Positions 59 to 6,950 of a DNA stretch of 7,022 nucleotides are shown piece by piece. Position 1 is the stretch's first letter. Each line of letters opens with the position of its first letter. The position numbers and the translations under genes were made by a program. The DNA comes from Candidatus Nanohaloarchaea archaeon (GTDB lineage Archaea; Nanohalarchaeota; Nanosalinia; Nanosalinales; Nanosalinaceae): NCBI GenBank assembly GCA_042217695.1, contig JBDGSE010000003.1, positions 1 through 7,022 of the forward strand, given 5' to 3'. The notes under the pieces are model-generated. The model was not told where the DNA came from, made no database searches, and saw only the letters and a list, made by a program, of their open reading frames with translations.

Positions 59-709
59 TCACTGGTCGGCTTCGAGTTCCTGGAGTTTCTCGTACACTCT
101 TCTTTCCTTGTCGGACAGCACGATACTCGAGTTCTTCTGCGTCCTGTGCCCTGTGTCAACTATGCTCTCGTCCACATCCAGACCGATCTTCTCGAACGTC
201 TCGAAGGCTTCGCCGGAGAGCAGGGATTCGTAGCTCACAAGGATCGCGTCGTCGATGTTCTCGTAGGCCGCGATCAAAGCGTTGTTGTTCTCCGCCCATG
301 AGAGCCCGAACTGCGAGATCCCGCGCCTCAGCTGACTGGATTTCACGTCCTTCGGGTTCCGGTAGATGAAAACCGCCTTCATGTCCTCGGCCAGGTACTT
401 GTAGAAGAATATGGCGGGTATCCGCACGATCTTGAGCCCGGACCAGTCCTCGAACTTGTTCAATCTCTCGATGACCTTGTTCATCTCTTTCGTGTTTTCC
501 TCGGTCATCGCGTTCTCTATCAGGTCCTTGGAGACCTCTTTACCGCGTTCAAGTTCGTAGTATCCCTCTTTGTTGTACTCGTCCTCGTCGAAATCGGTCG
601 GGAAATCAACGCCCGCGCTCTCGACCAGTTGACAGGCGAGCGAGGTACCGCTCCTTGGATGTCCTGCGACGAAGACCGTCCTGTCCACTACTTTGGGCTT
701 CTCTGTCAT
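59..709 (-). CDS. P-loop (PAPS-dependent) sulfotransferase family protein, about 216 aa
   Basis: It has the 5'-phosphosulfate-binding loop VAGHPRSGTS, the 3'-phosphate-binding motif IYRNPKDVKSS and a downstream VSYESL. I moved the start from 763 to ATG 709 (MTEKPK) because a BRE/TATA-like element lies about 24-31 nt upstream of 709. Confidence 0.88.
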   Translation of the reverse strand: MTEKPKVVDRTVFVAGHPRSGTSLACQLVESAGVDFPTDFDEDEYNKEGYYELERGKEVSKDLIENAMTEENTKEMNKVIERLNKFEDWSGLKIVRIPAIFFYKYLAEDMKAVFIYRNPKDVKSSQLRRGISQFGLSWAENNNALIAAYENIDDAILVSYESLLSGEAFETFEKIGLDVDESIVDTGHRTQKNSSIVLSDKERRVYEKLQELEADQ

Positions 710-732
710 ACAAAGATAGGGGCGGCTGAAAC

Positions 733-746
733 TATTTAATCTTTCG
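733..746 (-). promoter_or_regulatory. Archaeal BRE+TATA promoter for the sulfotransferase gene (probably leaderless)
   Basis: The minus strand reads CGAAAG-ATTAAATA, ending 24 nt upstream of ATG 709. Confidence 0.65.
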
Positions 747-789
747 AAGACCTGATAGAACACGAAAACACCTCACAAACCATTAACTA

Positions 790-1605: not shown

Positions 1606-2475
1606 ATGAAGGAAGCAGACCTCCACACGCATTCAACCGCCTCGGATGGCACCGATTCAGTCGACACAGTGGTCGAGACCGCACGGGAACGGGACATCGA
1701 CTGCGTGGCGATAACCGACCACGACACGCTTCACGAAGAACTCGAGTTCCGTGTGGAAAAACGGAACGGCGTGGAACTTATCAACGGCGCGGAGATAAAG
1801 GCCGAGATAGACGAAATGAAGATAGAGATACTTGGATACTTTCTCGATCCCTCTGATCCTGGTCTGAAGCAGTTGACCGAAAAGATCCGGGATCTCCGCG
1901 TGGAAAGGATGCAGGAGATGGTGGAACGCGTCAACGAGGTCATCGAGCCCGAACTCGTGATGGAGGACGTGAGAGAACATACCGAAGGTGCGCTGGGCCG
2001 ACCGCACCTGGGCATGGCTCTCCGCGATAAAGACGTTGTGGACACCGTTTCAGAGGCCTTCGAGGAGTACATCGGGGACGGCCAGCACGGCTATGTCGCC
2101 ACAAAGAAGCTCCCCGCGGAAGAGGTCATACAGCAGATACATGAAAACGGTGGTGTGGCATCCCTGGCCCATCCCGGACGCGACCTGTACGAGAAAGAGG
2201 ACGAAAAAGTCGGGAAACTGGCGGGCATGGGTCTCGACGCCATCGAGGTGCCGTACAGCTACGAACGGCTCGAGAAAGACCATTCGATAGATATGCATTT
2301 CAGGGAGACGCGGGCAGAGGAGCTCGCGGACAGCTACGGACTGCTGGTCTCGGGTGGATCCGACTCCCATGGAACGGAAAGCGGGAAAGACTACATCGGC
2401 AACGTCCGGCTGGATTATGGAAAAGTAGAAAAGTTGAAGGAGAGGGCCCGTTCTAGAGGTACCCGAGGTCTCTGA
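1606..2475 (+). CDS. PHP-domain metal-dependent phosphoesterase, TrpH/YciV-like (COG0613), 289 aa
   Basis: It carries DLHTHSTASDG, AITDHDT, GAEI, ILGY, GRPH, SLAHP and SGGSDSHG, plus the helical insertion (R..R...M) typical of this subfamily. Confidence 0.92.
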   Translation: MKEADLHTHSTASDGTDSVDTVVETARERDIDCVAITDHDTLHEELEFRVEKRNGVELINGAEIKAEIDEMKIEILGYFLDPSDPGLKQLTEKIRDLRVERMQEMVERVNEVIEPELVMEDVREHTEGALGRPHLGMALRDKDVVDTVSEAFEEYIGDGQHGYVATKKLPAEEVIQQIHENGGVASLAHPGRDLYEKEDEKVGKLAGMGLDAIEVPYSYERLEKDHSIDMHFRETRAEELADSYGLLVSGGSDSHGTESGKDYIGNVRLDYGKVEKLKERARSRGTRGL

Positions 2476-3061
2476 GCCTCTCCTTTGTCTCCTCTTCCTC
2501 CTGCGGAGTCATCCCTGTGTGTTCGTCTCTCTCCTCGAGAAGGCCTTCCTCCTCGAGGTAGTCCACGACCTTCTGTGCGGATTCCTCAGGTGATTCCTCC
2601 ACGGTGTTGACCTTTACATCCGGGTTCTCAGGCTCCTCGTAGGGATGGTTCACCCCGGTGAAGTTCTCGATCTTGCCCTCCTCGGCTTTCTCGTACAGGT
2701 TCTTCGGATCCCTGTCCTTCGCCACTTCGACCGGGCAATCCACGTATATCTCCACGAACTCGCCCTCGTTCTCGATCTCTTCCCTGGCGTTCTGGCGTGC
2801 ATCCTCGAACGGTGAGATCGCTGCCACGATAGTGGCGATGTCGTGCCTGTTCAAGAGCGAGGCTATAACAGAGATCCTGCGGTTGTTGATGGCGCGTTCC
2901 TCTCTTGTAAAACCCAGGTCGGGGTGCAGCTTTTTCCTCAGGTCGTCGCCGTCCAGGTTGTGCACCTGTTTATCCCGGGAACGCAGCTCTTCCTCCACCA
3001 GCTTGGCTACAGTGGATTTTCCAGAGGACGGGAGGCCGGTGAACCAGAGAGTGAAACCCAT
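2453..3061 (-). CDS. cysC: Adenylyl-sulfate (APS) kinase with an acidic C-terminal extension
   Basis: It has the P-loop WFTGLPSSGKST and the motifs LDGD, LGFTREER, AAISP, RDPKNLY and FTGV..PYEEP. It starts 1 nt after the sat stop, with a GGTGA RBS at 3068-3072. Confidence 0.97.
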   Translation of the reverse strand: MGFTLWFTGLPSSGKSTVAKLVEEELRSRDKQVHNLDGDDLRKKLHPDLGFTREERAINNRRISVIASLLNRHDIATIVAAISPFEDARQNAREEIENEGEFVEIYVDCPVEVAKDRDPKNLYEKAEEGKIENFTGVNHPYEEPENPDVKVNTVEESPEESAQKVVDYLEEEGLLEERDEHTGMTPQEEEETKERLRDLGYL

Positions 3062-3062
3062 C

Positions 3063-4205
3063 TTATTTCACCAGCGGCTGATCGAAGTCTTTCACGGTTT
3101 CAGCTACCTCGGGGCGCATCATCTCTGGAGGTGGCGTCTTACCCTCGGAAAGCATGTTCCTTATCTTGGTGCCTGAAGGAGTGACGTGGTGTTCCTGGCC
3201 GTGGGGACAGGTCTTCTCGGAGACGGTGTCGTCGCACTTCCTGCAGTAGAAGGCGTAGTCGTAGAACATCGGTTCGATCCCGATGGCACCTATCTCGTCG
3301 AAGATGGCCTGTGCCTCGTAGTCGCCGTAGTAGTCGCCGACTCCCGCGTGGTCACGGCCAACTATGAAATGGGTGCACCCGTGGTTCTTTCTGACTATGG
3401 CGTCGAAGACCGCCTCCCGCGGCCCCATGTAACGCATCTTCGAGGTGAAGATGCTCATCGCGGAGTGCTCGGGGTAGTAGTTCTGTATCAGGCTGCGGTA
3501 GGCCTCCAGTATGACCTCGTCCCGGTAGTCTCCGGACTTCTTCGCACCTATCTTGGGGTGGACCAGCACCGAGTCAACGTGCTCCATGGCGCTCTTCTGC
3601 AGGTACTCGTGGCCTCTGTGGGGGGCGTTACGGGTCTGGAAACCGACGACGGTGTCCCAGTCCTTCTCCTTGAACAGGACCCGGGTCTCCTTCGGGTTCA
3701 GGTTGTACTCCTGGAACCGGTCGAAACCGTCCTGTATCATCTGGATGTCGCCTCCCACGAGGTATTCGTCCTTCTCCATGTACATCTTCACCCCGGGGTG
3801 CTCCTCATCGTCGGTCTGGTAAAGCTTTTCCGCGGCCTCCTTCCTGTCGTAATCGTATATCTCGTCGACGTCCATGACCGCCAGCGGTTCACCGTCGTGT
3901 TCAAGCACCACCCGGTCCTCGGATTCGATGCGTTCCCTCTGTCCCTCATCGATGTCAAGAACAATGGGAACAGTCCAGACGGTACCGTCCTCCAGCGTCA
4001 TGTCCTCGACGACCTTCAGAAAGTTGTTCTGGTCCATGAAGCCTTTAAGCGGCGAGTAACGTCCGTCCGCGATGTTGTGAAGATCCTTTACAAGGTCTTC
4101 CCCGATTTTGATGCTTTCCATATCCTTCGCCTCCTTGAGAAGGCGTTCCCTCTTCTCTCCGTCGACCTTCCGGTCGACAAGTTTTCCTCCATGCGGTGGA
4201 ATCAT
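3063..4205 (-). CDS. sat: Sulfate adenylyltransferase (ATP sulfurylase, Sat type)
   Basis: It has N-terminal PPHGGKL, YSPLKGFM, FQTRNAPHRGHE (QxRN and HxxH), GPREA, VGRDHAGVG, a CxxC...CPH zinc site, SGTKIR and MRPEV. There is an ATGA overlap with the upstream gene and a GAGGT RBS at 4214-4218. Confidence 0.98.
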   Translation of the reverse strand: MIPPHGGKLVDRKVDGEKRERLLKEAKDMESIKIGEDLVKDLHNIADGRYSPLKGFMDQNNFLKVVEDMTLEDGTVWTVPIVLDIDEGQRERIESEDRVVLEHDGEPLAVMDVDEIYDYDRKEAAEKLYQTDDEEHPGVKMYMEKDEYLVGGDIQMIQDGFDRFQEYNLNPKETRVLFKEKDWDTVVGFQTRNAPHRGHEYLQKSAMEHVDSVLVHPKIGAKKSGDYRDEVILEAYRSLIQNYYPEHSAMSIFTSKMRYMGPREAVFDAIVRKNHGCTHFIVGRDHAGVGDYYGDYEAQAIFDEIGAIGIEPMFYDYAFYCRKCDDTVSEKTCPHGQEHHVTPSGTKIRNMLSEGKTPPPEMMRPEVAETVKDFDQPLVK

Positions 4206-4408
4206 AGCGAGTAACCTCTTGCGTCAAGTATCTCCCAGAGTTTCTCGTGGTACATGTAAAGTACAAATTTGACAGCCATCGAGACGCCGGCGATGCTTCC
4301 CGCGATGCTGGCGCTCCCGGTGAAAAGGTACGAGACTATCATGGTGGTCGCGGTGCCGTGCATCCTCCAGCTCAGGCTTTTACCGGCTTTCTGTCTCAGA
4401 CCCATCAT
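4202..4408 (-). CDS. Small membrane protein, DUF2061-like
   Basis: The pattern K.LSWR..GT.TT.....LFTG.....G......K..LY.YHEKLW with two hydrophobic segments fits DUF2061. It is translationally coupled to sat through the ATGA overlap at 4202-4205. The start is 4408 or 4405. Confidence 0.82.
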   Translation of the reverse strand: MMGLRQKAGKSLSWRMHGTATTMIVSYLFTGSASIAGSIAGVSMAVKFVLYMYHEKLWEILDARGYSL

Positions 4409-4411
4409 TTT

Positions 4412-4600
4412 TCACTCCACGTACCCCAGATCCTTCAGTTTCTGGGCTATCTCCTTAGCCTCTTCGACCGAGACATCTGAACCAGAATCTCCTTCAGCCA
4501 GCTCCCGGAGCTTGTCCTGTACGAACCGGGACAGGTTTATGTGGTTCTCATCCACGAACTCCGCAAGTTCATCGGGAAGCGAAATAGTCTTTCTCTTCAT
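4412..4600 (-). CDS. Small ribbon-helix-helix (CopG/CcdA-like) DNA-binding protein with an acidic C-terminal tail, about 62 aa
   Basis: MKRKTISLPDELAEFVDENHINLSRFVQDKLRE reads as an alternating beta strand, helix A, an 'NLS' turn and helix B. ATG 4600 is preferred over 4609 on TATA spacing. It ends 3 nt before the DUF2061 gene. Confidence 0.75.
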   Translation of the reverse strand: MKRKTISLPDELAEFVDENHINLSRFVQDKLRELAEGDSGSDVSVEEAKEIAQKLKDLGYVE

Positions 4601-4622
4601 ATGATGCATAAGTTAATTAAGA

Positions 4623-4638
4623 TATTAAAAATGTTTCT
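4623..4638 (-). promoter_or_regulatory. Archaeal BRE+TATA promoter of the RHH-DUF2061-sat-cysC operon
   Basis: The minus strand reads AGAAACA-TTTTTAATA, ending about 23 nt upstream of ATG 4600 in a very AT-rich gap. Confidence 0.65.
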
Positions 4639-4639
4639 G

Positions 4640-6040
4640 TCAGAAATCGATGCCGGAAACATCCGAAACATTCTCCGGTTCGAAATCTTCCGCGAAAATG
4701 TCCAGCGGGGAACCGTCCGCCTCGAGCTCCTGGCCCAGGTACCTCGCCAGCGTGGGCGCCACGTCGACTATGTCCGCATCCTCCAGTTCGCCGGAACGGA
4801 ACGCGGGGCCGTGAGCACCGTAGATGCCTGTACGCTTGTGGACGAACGCGTCAGTAGAGAAGAGGTATTCTGGAAAAAGAGGCGGCCCTACCGCAACATC
4901 TTCGGTGGTACGGAAAAGTAAATCAGGCATCCCGTCCGGGCTATCATATATGTCTTCGGAACGCCAGACATCCGTCACAAAATCTTCTCCCTCCAATTTT
5001 TCTTTTATTTCCTCGCGAATCTTTCTCGTGTCCTGTACACTCCCTTGAGACCAGCGGTCGTCGTTGATGTTGATGTCCCCAAAATTAGAGGTCGCCTTCA
5101 AGTACGAGAAAGCTTCTGTGTTCTGGAAATCTATTGCCTCGATGAAGCCGGACTTCGGGGAGAAATCAATTCCTGTGGACGCACTTAATCTGTCGTTCAA
5201 ATATTTCAGAAAAGGCCTAAGAAAGGTCTCTGCAAGAGGAGCGGCTAGTTCCTGTATCTTTTCTTTCAGGCCTCTACCTACAGTATCTTCTTCCTCTAGA
5301 TAACCCTTCTCCTTCAGCCAAGTATTTACGTAGAAATAGTTGTCGATATGAGTGAAGCCGTGGTCCGAGACCAGCAGTATGTTGTCGTACTCCTCCATCC
5401 TGTCGCCCAGGACCTCGTCCACCTTCTCGTAGGCCTCCAGAACCTGTTCGAAACTCCTAGAACGATGCGCATTTGTATCAGTAAGCTGGAAAACTTCTAC
5501 CCTCACATCAGTCTTCCCTCCTATCTGCGGGAAAGCTTTCTTCCTTATCTCAAAGTTGTGGTGATATGCCTGCCTACGCTTCTCTTTCGTAGGTTGTTGA
5601 CCGGTCTGCACAAAATCGAAGTCCGGAATATCTTCTAAAAGGCCGGAAGGATAGACATCAGGATCCTCGACCATTGGAAAACCTTCCACCATGAAACCGT
5701 TTATAGGCCAAACCGGGGAGGTCCCAGGTACGTTTATAACTCCAAATTCTCCGTCAAGACGATCCCATACGAAGTCTCCTTTCCACTTACTTGAATTCCT
5801 CAGAACTATATCGTAGTCTTCGTTGAGCCAGGTATGGTGAGAGGTGTCAAAACGATCCGGGCGGTAACCCGAGAACATCGACACCCAGGCCGGGATGGTG
5901 ACCGGAGGGATTGTCGACTCCATTTCGCCGAACGCGCCGTCCTCCATGAAACGCTCCATATTCGGCATCAGTCCTCTGTCGATGGCCTCCTCGATGTATT
6001 CCCGGACCGCGCCGTCCATCCCGAACACCAGCAGCGTCAT
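4640..6040 (-). CDS. Alkaline phosphatase superfamily protein (type I phosphodiesterase/nucleotide pyrophosphatase, COG3379-like), about 466 aa
   Basis: It carries VFGMDGA, STIPPVTIPAWVSMFSG (Thr nucleophile region), INVPGT, TDTNAH, VSDHGF, NTWLKEKGYL, VHKRTG and IVDVAPT. ATG 6040 follows an AGGAG RBS at 6050-6054; 6064 is an alternative start. No signal peptide is visible. Confidence 0.9.
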   Translation of the reverse strand: MTLLVFGMDGAVREYIEEAIDRGLMPNMERFMEDGAFGEMESTIPPVTIPAWVSMFSGYRPDRFDTSHHTWLNEDYDIVLRNSSKWKGDFVWDRLDGEFGVINVPGTSPVWPINGFMVEGFPMVEDPDVYPSGLLEDIPDFDFVQTGQQPTKEKRRQAYHHNFEIRKKAFPQIGGKTDVRVEVFQLTDTNAHRSRSFEQVLEAYEKVDEVLGDRMEEYDNILLVSDHGFTHIDNYFYVNTWLKEKGYLEEEDTVGRGLKEKIQELAAPLAETFLRPFLKYLNDRLSASTGIDFSPKSGFIEAIDFQNTEAFSYLKATSNFGDININDDRWSQGSVQDTRKIREEIKEKLEGEDFVTDVWRSEDIYDSPDGMPDLLFRTTEDVAVGPPLFPEYLFSTDAFVHKRTGIYGAHGPAFRSGELEDADIVDVAPTLARYLGQELEADGSPLDIFAEDFEPENVSDVSGIDF

Positions 6041-6086
6041 ATTATCAGTCTCCTTTACCAACATTTTATTACTTCAGTATATTGAT

Positions 6087-6950
6087 TCATACTTCTATCT
6101 CGATGTTTTCCGCCTCGGAGTAGTCCAGATGCTCAAGAGCCCTGAAAAGCAGGTTTGTTATCTTGACAGGCTCCTCCATATTTAAATTGACCGAGTAAAA
6201 CGCCTGATCTCTGTGTCCGCCTCCTTCTAGGCCGTGGTCAGACGCGAACACTACAAGAGTTTCATCATCGACTTCCTCAAGGAGTTTCCCAGCGAAGTCA
6301 TCCATTTCTTGGTAGAGTTCGCGGTCTTTCTCATCGTTGTTAAAGAACAGATGCTGGTGCCAGTCCGGGTAGTGCAGGTGCTGCATCACCAGTTTATGCT
6401 CCCCGATATTCTCAAGAAGCTGTTTCTTTCTGTACAAGTGCTCTGCCTCCATATCCCGTAAGACTCGTTCCTTTGATACAGGCGGTCTCTTCCTGTGGGC
6501 CTTGGTAACGTAACTCTTCCCTGCAATATAAGGGTACTCGCTGTAACCTGGTATGTCCAGAGCTTTCGAATCTGCGACTTTCTCAAAGATAGAATCGACT
6601 TTCAAGAAATCTCTGTCTGGCACAAATATGCTGGACTCGAAAAGGTAGTAGTAAAGCATCTTTCTGAAGTGCATCCCGCTCCTGTTAAACATCTGGAAAA
6701 ACTTCAGGACGTACCTGTCAATCTTGCGCACTTTTTCTCCCCGGAACGTAAGCATAGTGTCTATGCCGTGCCTCTCTGGCCTCTCACCAGTTATCATCGA
6801 TGCCCACAGCATCGGTGTGGACAGCTTTATGTCCTCTGTATCTAGTCTCCCGAAGCTCTGTAGCTGAAGATTCTTGCATTCGAACTTCCTTATTTTCTCG
6901 TGATCTAAGCCATCAAACCCTACAACCACCATTTTATCGAACTCGGGCAT
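6087..6950 (-). CDS. Alkaline phosphatase superfamily protein, short form, 287 aa
   Basis: It carries VVGFDGLD, STPMLWASMITG, HYPDWHQH, FASDHG and GGH, the same metal-ligand series as the longer paralog but without the large cap insertion. No signal peptide is visible. Confidence 0.85.
   Translation of the reverse strand: MPEFDKMVVVGFDGLDHEKIRKFECKNLQLQSFGRLDTEDIKLSTPMLWASMITGERPERHGIDTMLTFRGEKVRKIDRYVLKFFQMFNRSGMHFRKMLYYYLFESSIFVPDRDFLKVDSIFEKVADSKALDIPGYSEYPYIAGKSYVTKAHRKRPPVSKERVLRDMEAEHLYRKKQLLENIGEHKLVMQHLHYPDWHQHLFFNNDEKDRELYQEMDDFAGKLLEEVDDETLVVFASDHGLEGGGHRDQAFYSVNLNMEEPVKITNLLFRALEHLDYSEAENIEIEV

What the first reader, a model, noticed from the sequence alone, without database searches (positions are those of the whole stretch)
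2453..4465. The same acidic 'EE...[KR]L[KR]DLGY' C-terminal tail on two unrelated proteins of one operon (CysC and the RHH protein)
Seen: CysC ends ...MTPQEEEETKERLRDLGYL* (tail about 2453-2500). This follows its normal end (DYLEEEGLL) and a linker. The RHH protein ends ...SDVSVEEAKEIAQKLKDLGYVE* (about 4412-4465) after a G/S/D linker. Both share an acidic helix and L-[KR]-D-L-G-Y within 1-2 residues of the C-terminus. From general family knowledge, such 'L..LGY' tails are common on sulfatase/AlkP-family proteins, and I know of no assigned function. The two complete AlkP proteins here lack the terminal tail, although the long one has an internal WLKEKGYL. Inference: this is a portable docking or targeting tag that could assemble a sulfation complex or couple the regulator to pathway enzymes. 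It is the best candidate here for an undescribed system.
Basis: partly seen in the sequence, partly recalled or inferred. Interest (0 to 1): 0.8.

Follow-up and report, generated by a model that had tools for sequence, protein, structure and literature searches.

The report
Shared tail helix on sulfation proteins
A short, strongly conserved helix ending in Leu-Gly-Tyr sits at the very end of several unrelated sulfate-handling enzymes and of the small DNA-binding protein encoded with them, in salt-loving archaea and some bacteria; it probably works as a contact handle, but its partner is unknown.

Summary
CysC (2453-3061, -) ends ...EEEETKERLRDLGYL and the RHH protein (4412-4600, -) ends ...EEAKEIAQKLKDLGYVE. 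The window comes from a Nanohaloarchaeon.

The tail is a module of about 19 residues: [hydrophobic]-[S/T]-x-E-E-x-x-x-[I/V]-x-x-[K/R]-L-x-x-L-G-Y-[L/M/I/V], on an acidic linker. AF2 models it as a helix in both proteins.
- It is kept in 120 of 120 listed RHH orthologues and in 111 of 120 listed CysC relatives, some of them from Halobacteria and bacteria.
- In 21 related loci plus the window, 55 of 345 genes carry it, in six unrelated families: RHH, a small CopG-like protein, a CysD-like PAPS_reduct protein, PF00884 sulfatase-like enzymes, another AlkP-like family, and CysC. No other family has it.
- Ordinary CysD, including E. coli's, already ends ...L..GY[FML], so the motif is partly inherited by family.
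- A palindrome, ATGCATAA-N-TTATGCAT, precedes the RHH gene and also the unlinked CysD-like gene.

The motif is portable and linked to sulfation. Its function as a docking tag remains untested, and no receptor was found. No Pfam or NCBIfam model and no paper found describes it.

The parts
2453..3061 (-). cysC, adenylyl-sulfate (APS) kinase, 202 aa
   Evidence: Pfam APS_kinase E 8.9e-59 over residues 2-152. NCBIfam apsK 205 bits against a cut-off of 138.7. AF2 mean pLDDT 91.5. Best fold match is the A. fulgidus APS kinase 7yq1, TMt 0.95.
2456..2536 (-). CysC C-terminal extension, residues about 176-202: conserved linker ERDEHTGMT, an acidic run, and the LGY helix (AF2 helix at residues 186-199, coded at 2465-2506)
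   Evidence: It lies beyond the end of all solved APS kinases. AF2 block-mean pLDDT is 82 to 93 across it. 111 of 120 listed relatives keep L..[hydrophobic]GY at the end.
3063..4205 (-). sat, ATP sulfurylase; no tail
   Evidence: Pfam PUA_2 plus ATP-sulfurylase, E 1e-55 and 3.5e-88. Its start overlaps the DUF2061 stop, and its stop lies one base from the cysC start.
4202..4408 (-). DUF2061 small membrane protein, 68 aa
   Evidence: Pfam DUF2061 E 2.2e-18. A homologue directly follows the RHH gene in at least 10 of 21 related loci.
4412..4600 (-). RHH (CopG/Arc/MetJ-like) protein, 62 aa from the conserved Met (the ORF is open from 4609)
   Evidence: 299 relatives, of which the 120 listed are 62-100% identical. 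Sources name them Arc/MetJ-type RHH or CopG-family regulators. AF2 gives helices 10-18 and 23-36 plus the tail helix 45-58. No Pfam or NCBIfam match at E <= 0.01.
4415..4480 (-). RHH tail: G/S/D linker plus the LGY helix (VSVEEAKEIAQKLKDLGYVE)
   Evidence: K54, L55, L58, G59 and Y60 are invariant in 30 of 30 aligned orthologues. LGY is present in 120 of 120 listed. AF2 helix 45-58; this is the most confident part of the model, with block-mean pLDDT 76.
4601..4639 (-). RHH promoter region: an A/T-rich box (TTTTTAATAT) and one half-site TTATGCAT (4604-4611) directly before the start codon
   Evidence: Read from the sequence. In 14 of 21 related loci the full palindrome ATGCATAA-N-TTATGCAT, with at most one mismatch, sits at this place. 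The window keeps only one half.
4640..6064 (-). AlkP-family (PF01663) protein, 474 aa. It has no LGY tail, an internal WLKEKGYL at about 5297-5320, and ends ...SGIDF
   Evidence: Pfam Phosphodiest E 4.4e-27. Internal motif at residue 250. An '[DE][LIV][DE][FIV]' end occurs in 21 of 41 complete members of this family cluster.
6087..6950 (-). AlkP-family protein, 287 aa; ends ...NIEIEV, no LGY tail
   Evidence: Pfam Phosphodiest E 4.6e-13. Orthologues lie in L004, L013, L016 and L019.
59..763 (-). sulfotransferase-like protein, 234 aa; no tail
   Evidence: Pfam Sulfotransfer_1 E 4.8e-5, 23.3 bits against a cut-off of 22.
1606..2475 (+). PHP-domain protein, 289 aa, resembling 3',5'-bisphosphate nucleotidase; its last 23 bases overlap the cysC tail codons on the opposite strand
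   Evidence: Pfam PHP. NCBIfam NF041577 E 1.2e-40, 139 bits, which is below the cut-off of 400. Coordinates.

Best explanation
The two tails are copies of one portable C-terminal module. It is a single amphipathic alpha-helix of about 15 residues with:
- a capping box at its start ([hydrophobic]-[S/T]-x-E-E);
- a glycine cap at its end (L-x-x-L-G-Y-[hydrophobic]);
- a conserved narrow hydrophobic stripe ([I/V] at -9, L at -5, L at -2, then Y);
- a variable, mostly acidic tether joining it to the host protein.

The module marks three groups of proteins: sulfate-activating enzymes (a CysC clade and CysD-like proteins), cytoplasmic AlkP-superfamily enzymes, and the small RHH/CopG-like proteins encoded with them.

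I propose that it is a protein-protein contact handle. The hydrophobic stripe and the invariant Gly-Tyr would fit a common site, either on a shared partner or on one another's host proteins. Pathway enzymes would then be brought together, and the RHH repressor, whose tail is most like that of the CysD-like enzyme, would be coupled to the enzyme whose gene it controls. RHH antitoxins use a C-terminal helix to bind their partner in much this way.

Shown here: the module, its conservation, its restricted family range, its terminal position, its helical prediction, and the operator-like palindrome.
Inferred, not shown: that it binds anything, what it binds, and that the RHH protein is a repressor.
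For: Conservation:
- LGY in 120 of 120 listed RHH orthologues.
- L..[hydrophobic]GY in 111 of 120 CysC relatives retrieved by the whole protein. Tyr is never replaced by Phe, Leu or Trp; the only exceptions are one Gln and one His.

Portability:
- 55 of 345 genes in 21 Nanohaloarchaeal loci plus the window carry the tail.
- By family: RHH 22/22, small CopG-like 11/11, PAPS_reduct/CysD-like 12/13, PF00884 sulfatase-like 7/10, a further AlkP-like family 2/14, CysC 1/1.
- None in epimerases (0/23), flippases (0/12), nucleotidyl transferases (0/13) or PF01663 AlkP proteins (0/41).
- The 2/14 case shows the tail can be added to a fold that does not need it.

Terminal position:
- 55 terminal against 5 internal occurrences.
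- A 30-column tail profile run over 1.84 billion representatives gave 82 hits at E <= 1e-3; in 81 of them Tyr lies 1-2 residues from the end.

Range:
- Halopiger glycosylation cluster: 4 of the 14 annotated genes translated, namely 2 sulfatases, 1 AlkP and 1 PAPS_reduct.
- Bacterial AlkP proteins (Thermoleophilia) and CysC proteins named Bipolaricaulota.
- A Desulfolutivibrio PAPS_reduct protein.
- Two 31-kb haloarchaeal regions outside such clusters have the tail on the CysD-like gene only; no other six-frame ORF of 40 aa or more carries it, among 62 annotated genes.

Architecture:
- Linkers vary in length and composition in the sulfatase/AlkP and RHH proteins, while the helix is constant.
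- AF2 predicts a helix in CysC (186-199) and in RHH (45-58).

Coupling of regulator and enzyme:
- The palindrome ATGCATAA-N-TTATGCAT lies between an A/T box and the RHH start in 14 of 21 loci, with at most one mismatch.
- A perfect copy precedes the CysD-like gene in both loci where that gene has its own promoter, L003 and L012.
- An HMM built from RHH tails alone ranks CysD-like tails first among 1,840 six-frame ORFs (E 5e-4). Its first 28 non-RHH hits are all tail proteins, one of them a small CopG-like protein with LGY mutated to PGY.
- A natural fusion of APS kinase, a CopG-like domain and the tail exists (P0304).
Against: - No receptor was identified, and binding was not demonstrated by any search.
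- AF2 models the CysC tail and its linker as ordered (block-mean pLDDT 82-93). The CysC linker is itself conserved. Both fit a tail that packs on its own enzyme.
- Canonical CysD ends ...[11 protein letters not shown] in E. coli...LEELRKDGYM in Ilyobacter and ...FERLRSSGYL in Skermanella. The canonical last helix of APS kinase ends ...KKLMELGY in the A. fulgidus structure 7yq0. The motif can therefore be an integral, family-inherited element.
- Part of the likeness is generic to stable helices. The tail profile's best solved-structure match is a helix of ribosomal protein L7/L12 (E 0.013). Pfam gives weak partial matches to the first helix of PG_binding domains.
- The window's CysC tail scores only 7.2 bits (E 0.46) against the RHH-tail HMM.
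- Haloarchaeal CysD-like genes also sit alone in housekeeping neighbourhoods. A partner, if there is one, need not be encoded nearby.
Confidence: 0.4

Rival explanations
1. The tail is a family-autonomous structural helix. In each protein it packs on its own domain or holds its own homo-oligomer together, for example an RHH tetramer of the Mnt type or a helical hairpin with the preceding helix. There is no shared partner. The likeness between families comes from descent within the CysD and CysC families, together with convergence on an ideally capped helix.
For: - The CysC tail and linker are modelled as ordered (block-mean pLDDT 82-93), and the CysC linker motif is conserved.
- CysD and APS kinase have the motif as part of their ordinary ends.
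- Some CysC proteins show two successive copies, such as ...AKLEELGYL...KKRLEDLGYL (P0391). This suggests duplication of the enzyme's own last helix.
- There are generic matches to L7/L12 and PG_binding helices.
- In every tailed family a helix precedes the linker.
Against: - The same 19-residue pattern, with invariant Gly-Tyr, occurs on six unrelated folds.
- Linkers in the sulfatase/AlkP proteins are long and unconserved.
- It is added sporadically within one family (2/14).
- It is restricted to sulfate/AlkP enzymes and their RHH proteins rather than spread across families.
- Tyr is never replaced by Phe, which is hard to explain by hydrophobic packing alone.
Confidence: 0.35
2. The tail is a membrane-proximal targeting helix. 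It would bring cytoplasmic enzymes that act on lipid-linked glycans, and the regulator, to the membrane or to a small membrane protein such as DUF2061.
For: - 20 of 101 proteins newly retrieved with the tail profile are CysD-like proteins that carry a further stretch of up to about 18 hydrophobic residues directly after LGYM; L008 shows the same.
- A DUF2061 membrane protein is encoded directly after the RHH gene in the window and in at least 10 of 21 loci.
- The loci are surface-polysaccharide clusters with flippases, epimerases and nucleotidyl transferases.
- The sulfatase-like proteins have no signal peptide.
Against: - The helix is very polar. Eisenberg mean hydrophobicity is -0.45 for the CysC tail and -0.03 for the RHH tail, with moments 0.36 and 0.50.
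- The hydrophobic face is only three to five residues.
- Invariant Gly-Tyr argues for a specific protein site.
- A DNA-binding RHH carries it.
- DUF2061 is absent from about half of the loci.
Confidence: 0.1
3. The invariant tyrosine on a flexible arm is a site of covalent modification, such as O-sulfation or adenylylation. It would serve as a carrier or sensor of activated sulfate.
For: - Tyr is never replaced by Phe in 120 RHH, 111 CysC and 81 profile hits.
- The host enzymes make, bind or cleave activated sulfate or phosphate esters: CysC, CysD-like, and sulfatase or phosphodiesterase folds.
- The window encodes a sulfotransferase of unknown substrate.
- From my own knowledge, not checked by any search: PAPS reductases of the same superfamily use a mobile C-terminal tail that carries the catalytic residue.
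Against: - There is no direct evidence.
- E. coli CysD has the Gly-Tyr end, and from my own knowledge no such modification is known there.
- The sequence around the Tyr is basic and hydrophobic rather than acidic.
Confidence: 0.04
4. The likeness is chance, or a by-product of the acidic, E/K/L-rich composition of a halophile proteome.
For: The proteome is acidic, and E/K-rich helices are common. Part of the profile matches unrelated helices.
Against: - 0.04 to 0.10 terminal occurrences are expected against 55 observed.
- The motif is conserved across phyla.
- No other six-frame ORF carries it in two 31-kb haloarchaeal control regions with 62 annotated genes.
Confidence: 0.01

Closest known systems
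Canonical C-terminus of CysD (sulfate adenylyltransferase subunit 2)
   Same: CysD ends with ...ER.GR...[ML]E.L[KR]..GY[FML]. Examples are E. coli ...[25 protein letters not shown], and the Ilyobacter and Skermanella proteins. The CysD-like proteins of Nanohaloarchaea, Halobacteria and Desulfolutivibrio align to it up to the last residue.
   Different: Canonical CysD has no Leu at -2 and works with the GTPase CysN. The proteins here score far below the CysD and CysH model cut-offs (72 bits against 195). No cysN was seen in the loci, though this was not searched for systematically. The role of the CysD end was not found in the passages I read.
Last helix of APS kinase (for example A. fulgidus 7YQ0)
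   Same: The ordinary fold ends in a helix of the same pattern...EEEVEAVLKKLMELGY. The RHH-family profile matches it weakly (E 1.4). The window's own canonical end is ...KVVDYLEEEGLL.
   Different: In the window's CysC clade a second such helix is added after a conserved linker. No solved APS kinase has this. The canonical helix tolerates Phe or Leu after the Gly (EGFIK, EGLL). The added tail does not.
RHH regulators with a C-terminal helix: type II antitoxins (RelB, ParD, CcdA, FitA) and the Mnt repressor
   Same: An N-terminal RHH dimer, a flexible linker and a C-terminal helix, with a palindromic site over the gene's own promoter. In those systems the helix binds the partner protein or makes the tetramer; this is recalled from textbook knowledge.
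   Different: There is no toxin gene next to it. The helix is shared with enzymes. No Pfam RHH model is matched at E <= 0.01.
Encapsulation peptides of bacterial microcompartments and cargo-loading peptides of encapsulins
   Same: A short terminal amphipathic helix on a poorly conserved linker, shared by unrelated enzymes of one pathway. The comparison is from my own knowledge of those systems.
   Different: No shell or encapsulin genes were seen in the 21 loci or the window (not every gene was scanned). A DNA-binding protein carries the tail. It is always C-terminal.
HbYX and GQYL C-terminal motifs of proteasome activators
   Same: A conserved tyrosine near a free C-terminus.
   Different: Tyr is followed by 1, 2 or 3 residues (77, 114 and 101 sequences). 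It is always preceded by Gly, not by a hydrophobic residue.
MinD/FtsA-type C-terminal membrane-targeting helices
   Same: A short C-terminal amphipathic helix after a linker, with basic residues beside Leu.
   Different: Much lower hydrophobicity, acidic residues within the helix, and an invariant Gly-Tyr.

Membership tests
APS kinase (CysC) | Match to the curated family models above their cut-offs | tested here: met
   Pfam PF01583 at 198 bits (cut-off 21.1). NCBIfam TIGR00455 at 205 bits (cut-off 138.7).
APS kinase (CysC) | P-loop kinase fold superposable on solved APS kinases | tested here: met
   AF2 mean pLDDT 91.5. Foldseek match to 7yq1_C with TMt 0.95 and rmsd 1.2 over 173 columns.
APS kinase (CysC) | Ordinary length, ending with the last helix of the fold | tested here: not met
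   About 27 extra residues follow the canonical end. This is a clade-specific extension and does not argue against membership.
Ribbon-helix-helix (CopG/Arc/MetJ) DNA-binding proteins | Match to an RHH family model | tested here: not met
   No Pfam or NCBIfam family at E <= 0.01. Only source names say Arc/MetJ-type RHH or CopG family.
Ribbon-helix-helix (CopG/Arc/MetJ) DNA-binding proteins | An N-terminal strand with basic or polar residues, followed by two helices | tested here: inconclusive
   The invariant R3-K4-T5-I6-S7-L8-P9 is followed by AF2 helices 10-18 and 23-36. The strand is not formed in the monomer model (pLDDT < 50 for residues 1-6), as expected for a fold that needs a dimer.
Ribbon-helix-helix (CopG/Arc/MetJ) DNA-binding proteins | A palindromic operator at its own promoter | tested here: met
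   ATGCATAA-N-TTATGCAT with at most one mismatch lies directly upstream of the start codon in 14 of 21 loci. The window keeps one half-site. Binding itself was not tested.
Type II antitoxin (RHH class) | An adjacent toxin gene | tested here: not met
   The downstream genes are DUF2061, an AlkP-like gene, a CysD-like gene, or sat and cysC.
CysD / PAPS_reduct superfamily (the about 305-aa tailed protein of related loci) | PP-loop PAPS_reduct domain | tested here: met
   PF01507 at E 1e-19 to 1e-22.
CysD / PAPS_reduct superfamily (the about 305-aa tailed protein of related loci) | Reaches the CysD or CysH equivalog cut-offs | tested here: not met
   The best match is NF003587 CysD at 71.8 bits against a cut-off of 195. 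It is a distinct subfamily.
Formylglycine sulfatases (PF00884 sensu stricto) | A C/S-x-P/A-x-R motif near the N-terminus, and export | tested here: not met
   No such motif in the first 140 residues of the 7 tailed or related sulfatase-like proteins examined. The domain starts at residue 2-20, leaving no room for a signal peptide.
HbYX proteasome-activator motif | A penultimate Tyr preceded by a hydrophobic residue | tested here: not met
   The position of Tyr varies, with 1-3 residues after it. The residue before Tyr is Gly in 120/120 RHH, 111/113 CysC and 81/81 profile hits.
Membrane-targeting amphipathic helix | High hydrophobic moment together with mean hydrophobicity near or above zero | tested here: inconclusive
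   CysC tail: moment 0.36, mean hydrophobicity -0.45. RHH tail: 0.50 and -0.03. Only two sequences were computed, and with a simple scale.
Microcompartment or encapsulin targeting peptides | Shell or capsid genes in the same genome or locus | not tested
   None was noticed among the proteins scanned. Whole genomes could not be searched.

The most novel reading that the evidence does not exclude
The tail may be more than a passive handle. On this reading it is a swinging arm whose invariant tyrosine is transiently sulfated or adenylylated. It would act as a protein-borne carrier and read-out of activated sulfate. CysC and CysD-like enzymes would load it, sulfatase- and phosphodiesterase-fold enzymes would unload or use it, and the RHH repressor, carrying the same arm, would sense the PAPS status of the cell.
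Probability: 0.04. Interest if true: 0.95.

Novelty: new variant of a known kind. Interest (0 to 1): 0.62.

Why it matters
Terminal peptides shared by unrelated enzymes of one pathway usually encode an assembly or targeting rule. Known examples are microcompartment encapsulation peptides, SSB tails and FtsZ tails.

This motif covers the enzymes that make PAPS and a large set of cytoplasmic 'sulfatase' and 'alkaline phosphatase' homologues. The roles of those homologues in archaeal surface-glycan clusters are unknown. From my own knowledge, the enzymes that sulfate haloarchaeal glycans and glycolipids are also largely unidentified.

If the tail defines a complex, it gives a direct handle for finding that machinery. 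It would also explain how a small repressor is wired to it. The motif occurs in Halobacteria, which are genetically tractable. The question can therefore be tested there rather than in uncultivable Nanohaloarchaea.

If the tail proves to be only a structural cap, the result is still useful. It would be an annotation feature: a 19-residue signature that separates a CysC clade, a CysD-like subfamily and non-secreted AlkP-superfamily enzymes.

Tried and rejected
- **Complex prediction of two CysC plus two RHH chains (collected).** No verdict. The score was 0.00 against a mark of 0.32, and the partner's own fold was uncertain. This counts neither for nor against binding.
- **ESM Atlas search with the tail alone.** No usable hit.
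- **tblastn of a bacterial small CopG-like tail protein against plasmids.** No match.
- **Literature.**
  - 'LGY motif' gave one unrelated paper (listing only).
  - Six tail heptapeptides searched as strings gave 0 papers.
  - Nanohaloarchaea with sulfatase or sulfotransferase gave listings only, nothing relevant.
  - DUF2061 gave six incidental mentions (listing only).
  - CysD C-terminus: I read passages of PMC5770160 and PMC4373884. Neither describes it. The original CysD-CysN structure paper was not in the library.
- **DNA repeat or RNA element as the cause.** Rejected, because the codons differ between the two tails.
- **HbYX motif.** Rejected.
- **RHH as a sat/cysC-specific regulator.** Rejected: 0 of 21 loci.
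- **The tail as a general haloarchaeal C-terminal habit.** Rejected: no other ORF carries it in two 31-kb control regions.
- **Pfam and NCBIfam models for the tail, the RHH or the small CopG-like protein.** None at E <= 0.01 for the window's CysC and RHH in either library, none in Pfam at E <= 0.001 for the small proteins, and none in NCBIfam at E <= 0.01 for the one small protein scanned. At E <= 1 there were only weak partial matches, to RHH_1, PG_binding_2, POTRA and UFL1_C.
- **P0241 (1,350 aa, top profile hit).** It has ten internal ...RL.ELGY repeats inside a 66-residue repeat. I judged it a different thing.

Three limits on the evidence:
- Alignment A3, used for the CysC fold, was picked mostly from tail-bearing relatives. 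Its invariant LGY columns therefore say nothing; the unbiased count is that.
- The 40-residue tail alignment A4 contains family-specific residues upstream of the tail. The family range seen is biased towards the families put in.

Full report
**What is in the window**

Six genes lie head to tail on the minus strand:
- an AlkP-family protein of 287 aa (6087-6950);
- an AlkP-family protein of 474 aa (4640-6064);
- a 62-65-aa RHH-like protein (4412-4600/4609);
- a DUF2061 membrane protein (4202-4408);
- ATP sulfurylase Sat (3063-4205);
- APS kinase CysC (2453-3061).

The last four are packed with overlaps or gaps of 1-4 bases. Nearby lie a sulfotransferase-like gene (59-763, -), an unassigned 252-aa ORF (809-1567, +), and a PHP-domain protein (1606-2475, +). 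The PHP protein resembles 3',5'-bisphosphate nucleotidases, but below that model's cut-off. The window thus encodes a plausible PAPS cycle: make it, use it, clear PAP. The closest relatives of both proteins are named Candidatus Nanohaloarchaea.

**The observation**

Both tails are as described.
- The CysC tail begins after the normal end of the fold. Family models stop at residue 152 or 169. Sequence matches to solved APS kinases end at query residues 160-180, and fold matches span 168-182 columns of the 202-residue model.
- The two tails use different codons, so the likeness is selected at the protein level.
- From composition, 0.04 terminal occurrences of L..LGY are expected in 345 genes. 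I found 55, against 5 internal ones.

**Conservation**

- All 120 listed RHH orthologues (of 299 found) end ...KL..LGY plus one to three residues. K54, L55, L58, G59 and Y60 are invariant in a 30-sequence alignment, while the linker varies.
- Of the 120 best CysC relatives, retrieved by the whole protein, 91 end in strict LGY and 111 in L..[hydrophobic]GY. The remaining nine have variants such as LCY or LDY, Gln or His in place of Tyr, or an end that fails the pattern.
- These relatives are named Nanohaloarchaea, Aenigmatarchaeota, Bipolaricaulota (bacteria) and Halobacteria (Halorubrum, Haloparvum).
- The refutation test 'not conserved in orthologues' therefore fails for both proteins.

**Context of the RHH gene**

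A genome scan with the RHH alignment gave 22 loci, 21 of them Nanohaloarchaeal. None has sat or cysC near the RHH gene. The usual order is: AlkP-family genes, RHH, often DUF2061, an AlkP-like gene of about 255 aa, then a protein of about 305 aa with a PAPS_reduct domain. In locus L004 the two AlkP genes upstream of the RHH gene have orthologues in the window (76% and 68% identity). The sat-cysC pair of the window stands where L004 has the AlkP-like and PAPS_reduct genes.

**The tail is portable**

Among 345 complete genes of these loci and the window, 55 carry the tail:

| Family | Tailed / total |
|---|---|
| RHH | 22/22 |
| Second small protein of about 70 aa, RHH-like (Atlas neighbours are named CopG family) | 11/11 |
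| PAPS_reduct protein | 12/13 |
| PF00884 sulfatase-like proteins | 7/10 |
| Further AlkP-like family of about 280 aa | 2/14 |
| CysC | 1/1 |
| Epimerases | 0/23 |
| Flippases | 0/12 |
| Nucleotidyl transferases | 0/13 |
| PF01663 AlkP proteins | 0/41 |

An alignment of 20 tails from these families has L, L, G and Y invariant, and [I/V] at -9 in at least 70%.

A profile of that alignment was run over 1.84 billion representative proteins. It found 82 at E <= 1e-3, and in 81 of them Tyr is one or two residues from the end. Most are small RHH-like proteins or C-terminal fragments. One is a fusion of APS kinase, an RHH-like domain and the tail (P0304).

A 40-residue version searched among longer proteins gave 103 hits at E <= 10. 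Ninety of them carry Pfam annotation, and all ninety carry PF01507, PF01663, PF00884 or PF01583. They include bacterial AlkP proteins ending ...YSEEDEEEVRKRLEDLGYL. That query was biased towards these families by its upstream columns.

Other contexts:
- In a Halopiger plasmid glycosylation cluster, four of the 14 annotated genes I translated have the tail.
- In two 31-kb haloarchaeal regions of ordinary genes, only the PAPS_reduct gene has it.

**What the module is**

The consensus is [Y/F/L/I]-[S/T]-x-E-E-E-E-x-[I/V]-[K/R]-x-[K/R]-L-x-x-L-G-Y-[L/M/I]-([D/E]).

By standard helix-capping rules, which are my reading and not a tool result, this is one helix with three features:
- a hydrophobic staple and capping box at its start;
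- acidic residues first and basic residues last;
- a Schellman-type glycine cap whose following Tyr folds back on L(-5).

AF2 predicts a helix at CysC 186-199 (block-mean pLDDT about 93) and at RHH 45-58 (about 76, the best part of a weak monomer model).

Part of the pattern is generic. The profile's best solved-structure match is a helix of L7/L12 (E 0.013), and Pfam gives weak partial hits to the first helix of PG_binding domains. The specific features are the terminal position, the L..LGY end, and a Tyr that is never Phe.

**Where it comes from**

- Canonical CysD ends in the same way (Ilyobacter, Skermanella, E. coli). The PAPS_reduct proteins here align with CysD to the last residue. In that family the tail is therefore inherited.
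- The ordinary last helix of APS kinase has the pattern too (7yq0 ...KKLMELGY). Some CysC proteins show two successive copies, so the CysC tail may be a duplicated last helix.
- On sulfatase-like, AlkP-like and RHH proteins it looks acquired.

**Regulator and enzyme**

A 17-base palindrome, ATGCATAA-N-TTATGCAT, lies between an A/T-rich box and the RHH start codon in 14 of 21 loci with at most one mismatch. Two further loci have 2-3 mismatches. The window keeps one half-site.

Perfect copies also precede the PAPS_reduct gene in L003 and L012, the two loci where that gene stands apart from the RHH gene. The RHH protein is thus very likely an autoregulator that also controls the tailed CysD-like gene. 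Binding was not tested.

An HMM made from RHH tails alone ranks the CysD-like tails first among all non-RHH ORFs (E 5e-4). The window's CysC tail scores weakly (E 0.46).

**Mechanism**

I favour a protein-protein contact handle (0.40). Its conserved part is a narrow hydrophobic stripe plus Gly-Tyr. It sits on variable tethers on unrelated folds of one functional neighbourhood. The regulator carries the version of the enzyme it controls, an architecture that recalls RHH antitoxins.

The main rival (0.35) is that each tail packs on its own protein or oligomer. Supporting it:
- AF2 models the CysC tail and linker as ordered.
- The CysC linker is conserved.
- CysD and APS kinase use the motif as an integral element.

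Membrane targeting (0.10) is suggested by three things:
- a hydrophobic stretch after LGYM in 20 of 101 proteins newly retrieved with the tail profile, all CysD-like;
- the DUF2061 neighbour;
- the glycan-cluster setting.

The helix, however, is very polar.

A modified-tyrosine reading (0.04) is not excluded. None of these was tested directly.

**Comparison with the known, and novelty**

No Pfam or NCBIfam model covers the tail, the RHH protein or the small CopG-like protein. My literature searches found no description. The open library lacks many subscription papers, so this is not proof of absence.

The kind of feature is known: a terminal helix shared by pathway proteins. This instance, its family range across Archaea and Bacteria, and its presence on the cognate repressor appear undescribed. 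I rate it a new variant of a known kind, with interest 0.62.

Noticed in passing
window 4601-4639; L001-L021 directly upstream of the RHH start; L003:19053-19069; L012:11401-11417: A conserved 8+1+8 palindrome, ATGCATAA-N-TTATGCAT, lies between an A/T-rich box and the RHH start codon. It has at most one mismatch in 14 of 21 loci. Perfect copies also lie in front of the CysD-like gene where that gene is unlinked. The window, like L014, keeps only the half-site TTATGCAT (window 4604-4611).
   Followed up: yes
window 4640-4654 and 6087-6104; many AlkP genes in L001-L021: There is a second, different C-terminal motif...E-x-[LIV]-[DEGS]-[LIV]-[DE]-[FIV]*, as in ...EELEDLDF...SGIDF and ...NIEIEV. 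It occurs on 21 of 41 complete PF01663 AlkP proteins and on 4 of 4 members of a 330-aa sulfatase-like family. AlkP-superfamily proteins of these clusters thus tend to carry one of two terminal motifs.
   Followed up: partly
window 2453-4408 compared with L004:7528-10956: The sat-cysC pair occupies the place where related loci have an AlkP-like gene of about 255 aa and the CysD-like gene (L004 has a further AlkP gene between them). None of the 21 related loci has sat or cysC. This looks like a module swap downstream of RHH-DUF2061.
   Followed up: partly
L008:2058-3011; P0329, P0330, P0347, P0364 and 16 others: Twenty of 101 proteins newly retrieved with the tail profile, all CysD-like, continue after ...LGYM with a stretch of up to about 18 hydrophobic residues, for example AVPLFAVGLQSLQGTGL. 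This may be a membrane anchor placed directly after the helix.
   Followed up: no
P0304 (265 aa; Pfam): A natural fusion of APS kinase, a small RHH-like domain and the LGY tail. P0244 has RHH_1 plus a second RHH-like unit plus the tail. P0317 has a DnaB N-terminal domain plus the tail.
   Followed up: partly
L004:11924-12676: A sugar nucleotidyl transferase carries an N-terminal RHH_1 domain (residues 5-40, E 2.2e-8). This is an unusual fusion of a DNA-binding fold to a glycan-precursor enzyme in the same clusters.
   Followed up: no
L003:3852-5261, L013:5306-6532, L014:2158-3426, L014:17679-18989, L017:6779-8218: The proteins Pfam calls 'sulfatase' start their catalytic domain at residue 2-20, so they have no signal peptide. 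They lack a C/S-x-P/A-x-R formylglycine motif in the first 140 residues. They are probably cytoplasmic AlkP-superfamily enzymes with another chemistry.
   Followed up: partly
window 2453-2475: The convergent cysC and PHP-domain ORFs overlap by 23 bases at their 3' ends. The last seven CysC codons, ...RDLGYL and the stop, are shared with the end of the opposite-strand ORF.
   Followed up: no
window 4202-4230: The window's DUF2061 protein ends ...LWEILDARGYSL, a faint echo of the tail. Its orthologues end ...WERLWNNISWGLE. This is probably chance, or a constraint from the overlap with the sat start.
   Followed up: no
L028 and L029: In Natrinema and Halarchaeum the tailed CysD-like gene lies among housekeeping genes (glutamate-cysteine ligase, ribonucleotide reductase), not in a glycan cluster. 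Its role may be broader than surface-glycan modification.
   Followed up: no
L024:5595-6801: In Desulfolutivibrio the tailed CysD-like gene directly follows tatA. It lies about 2 kb downstream of a block of sulfotransferase, WbqC and aminotransferase genes, with an IS5 transposase gene between.
   Followed up: no
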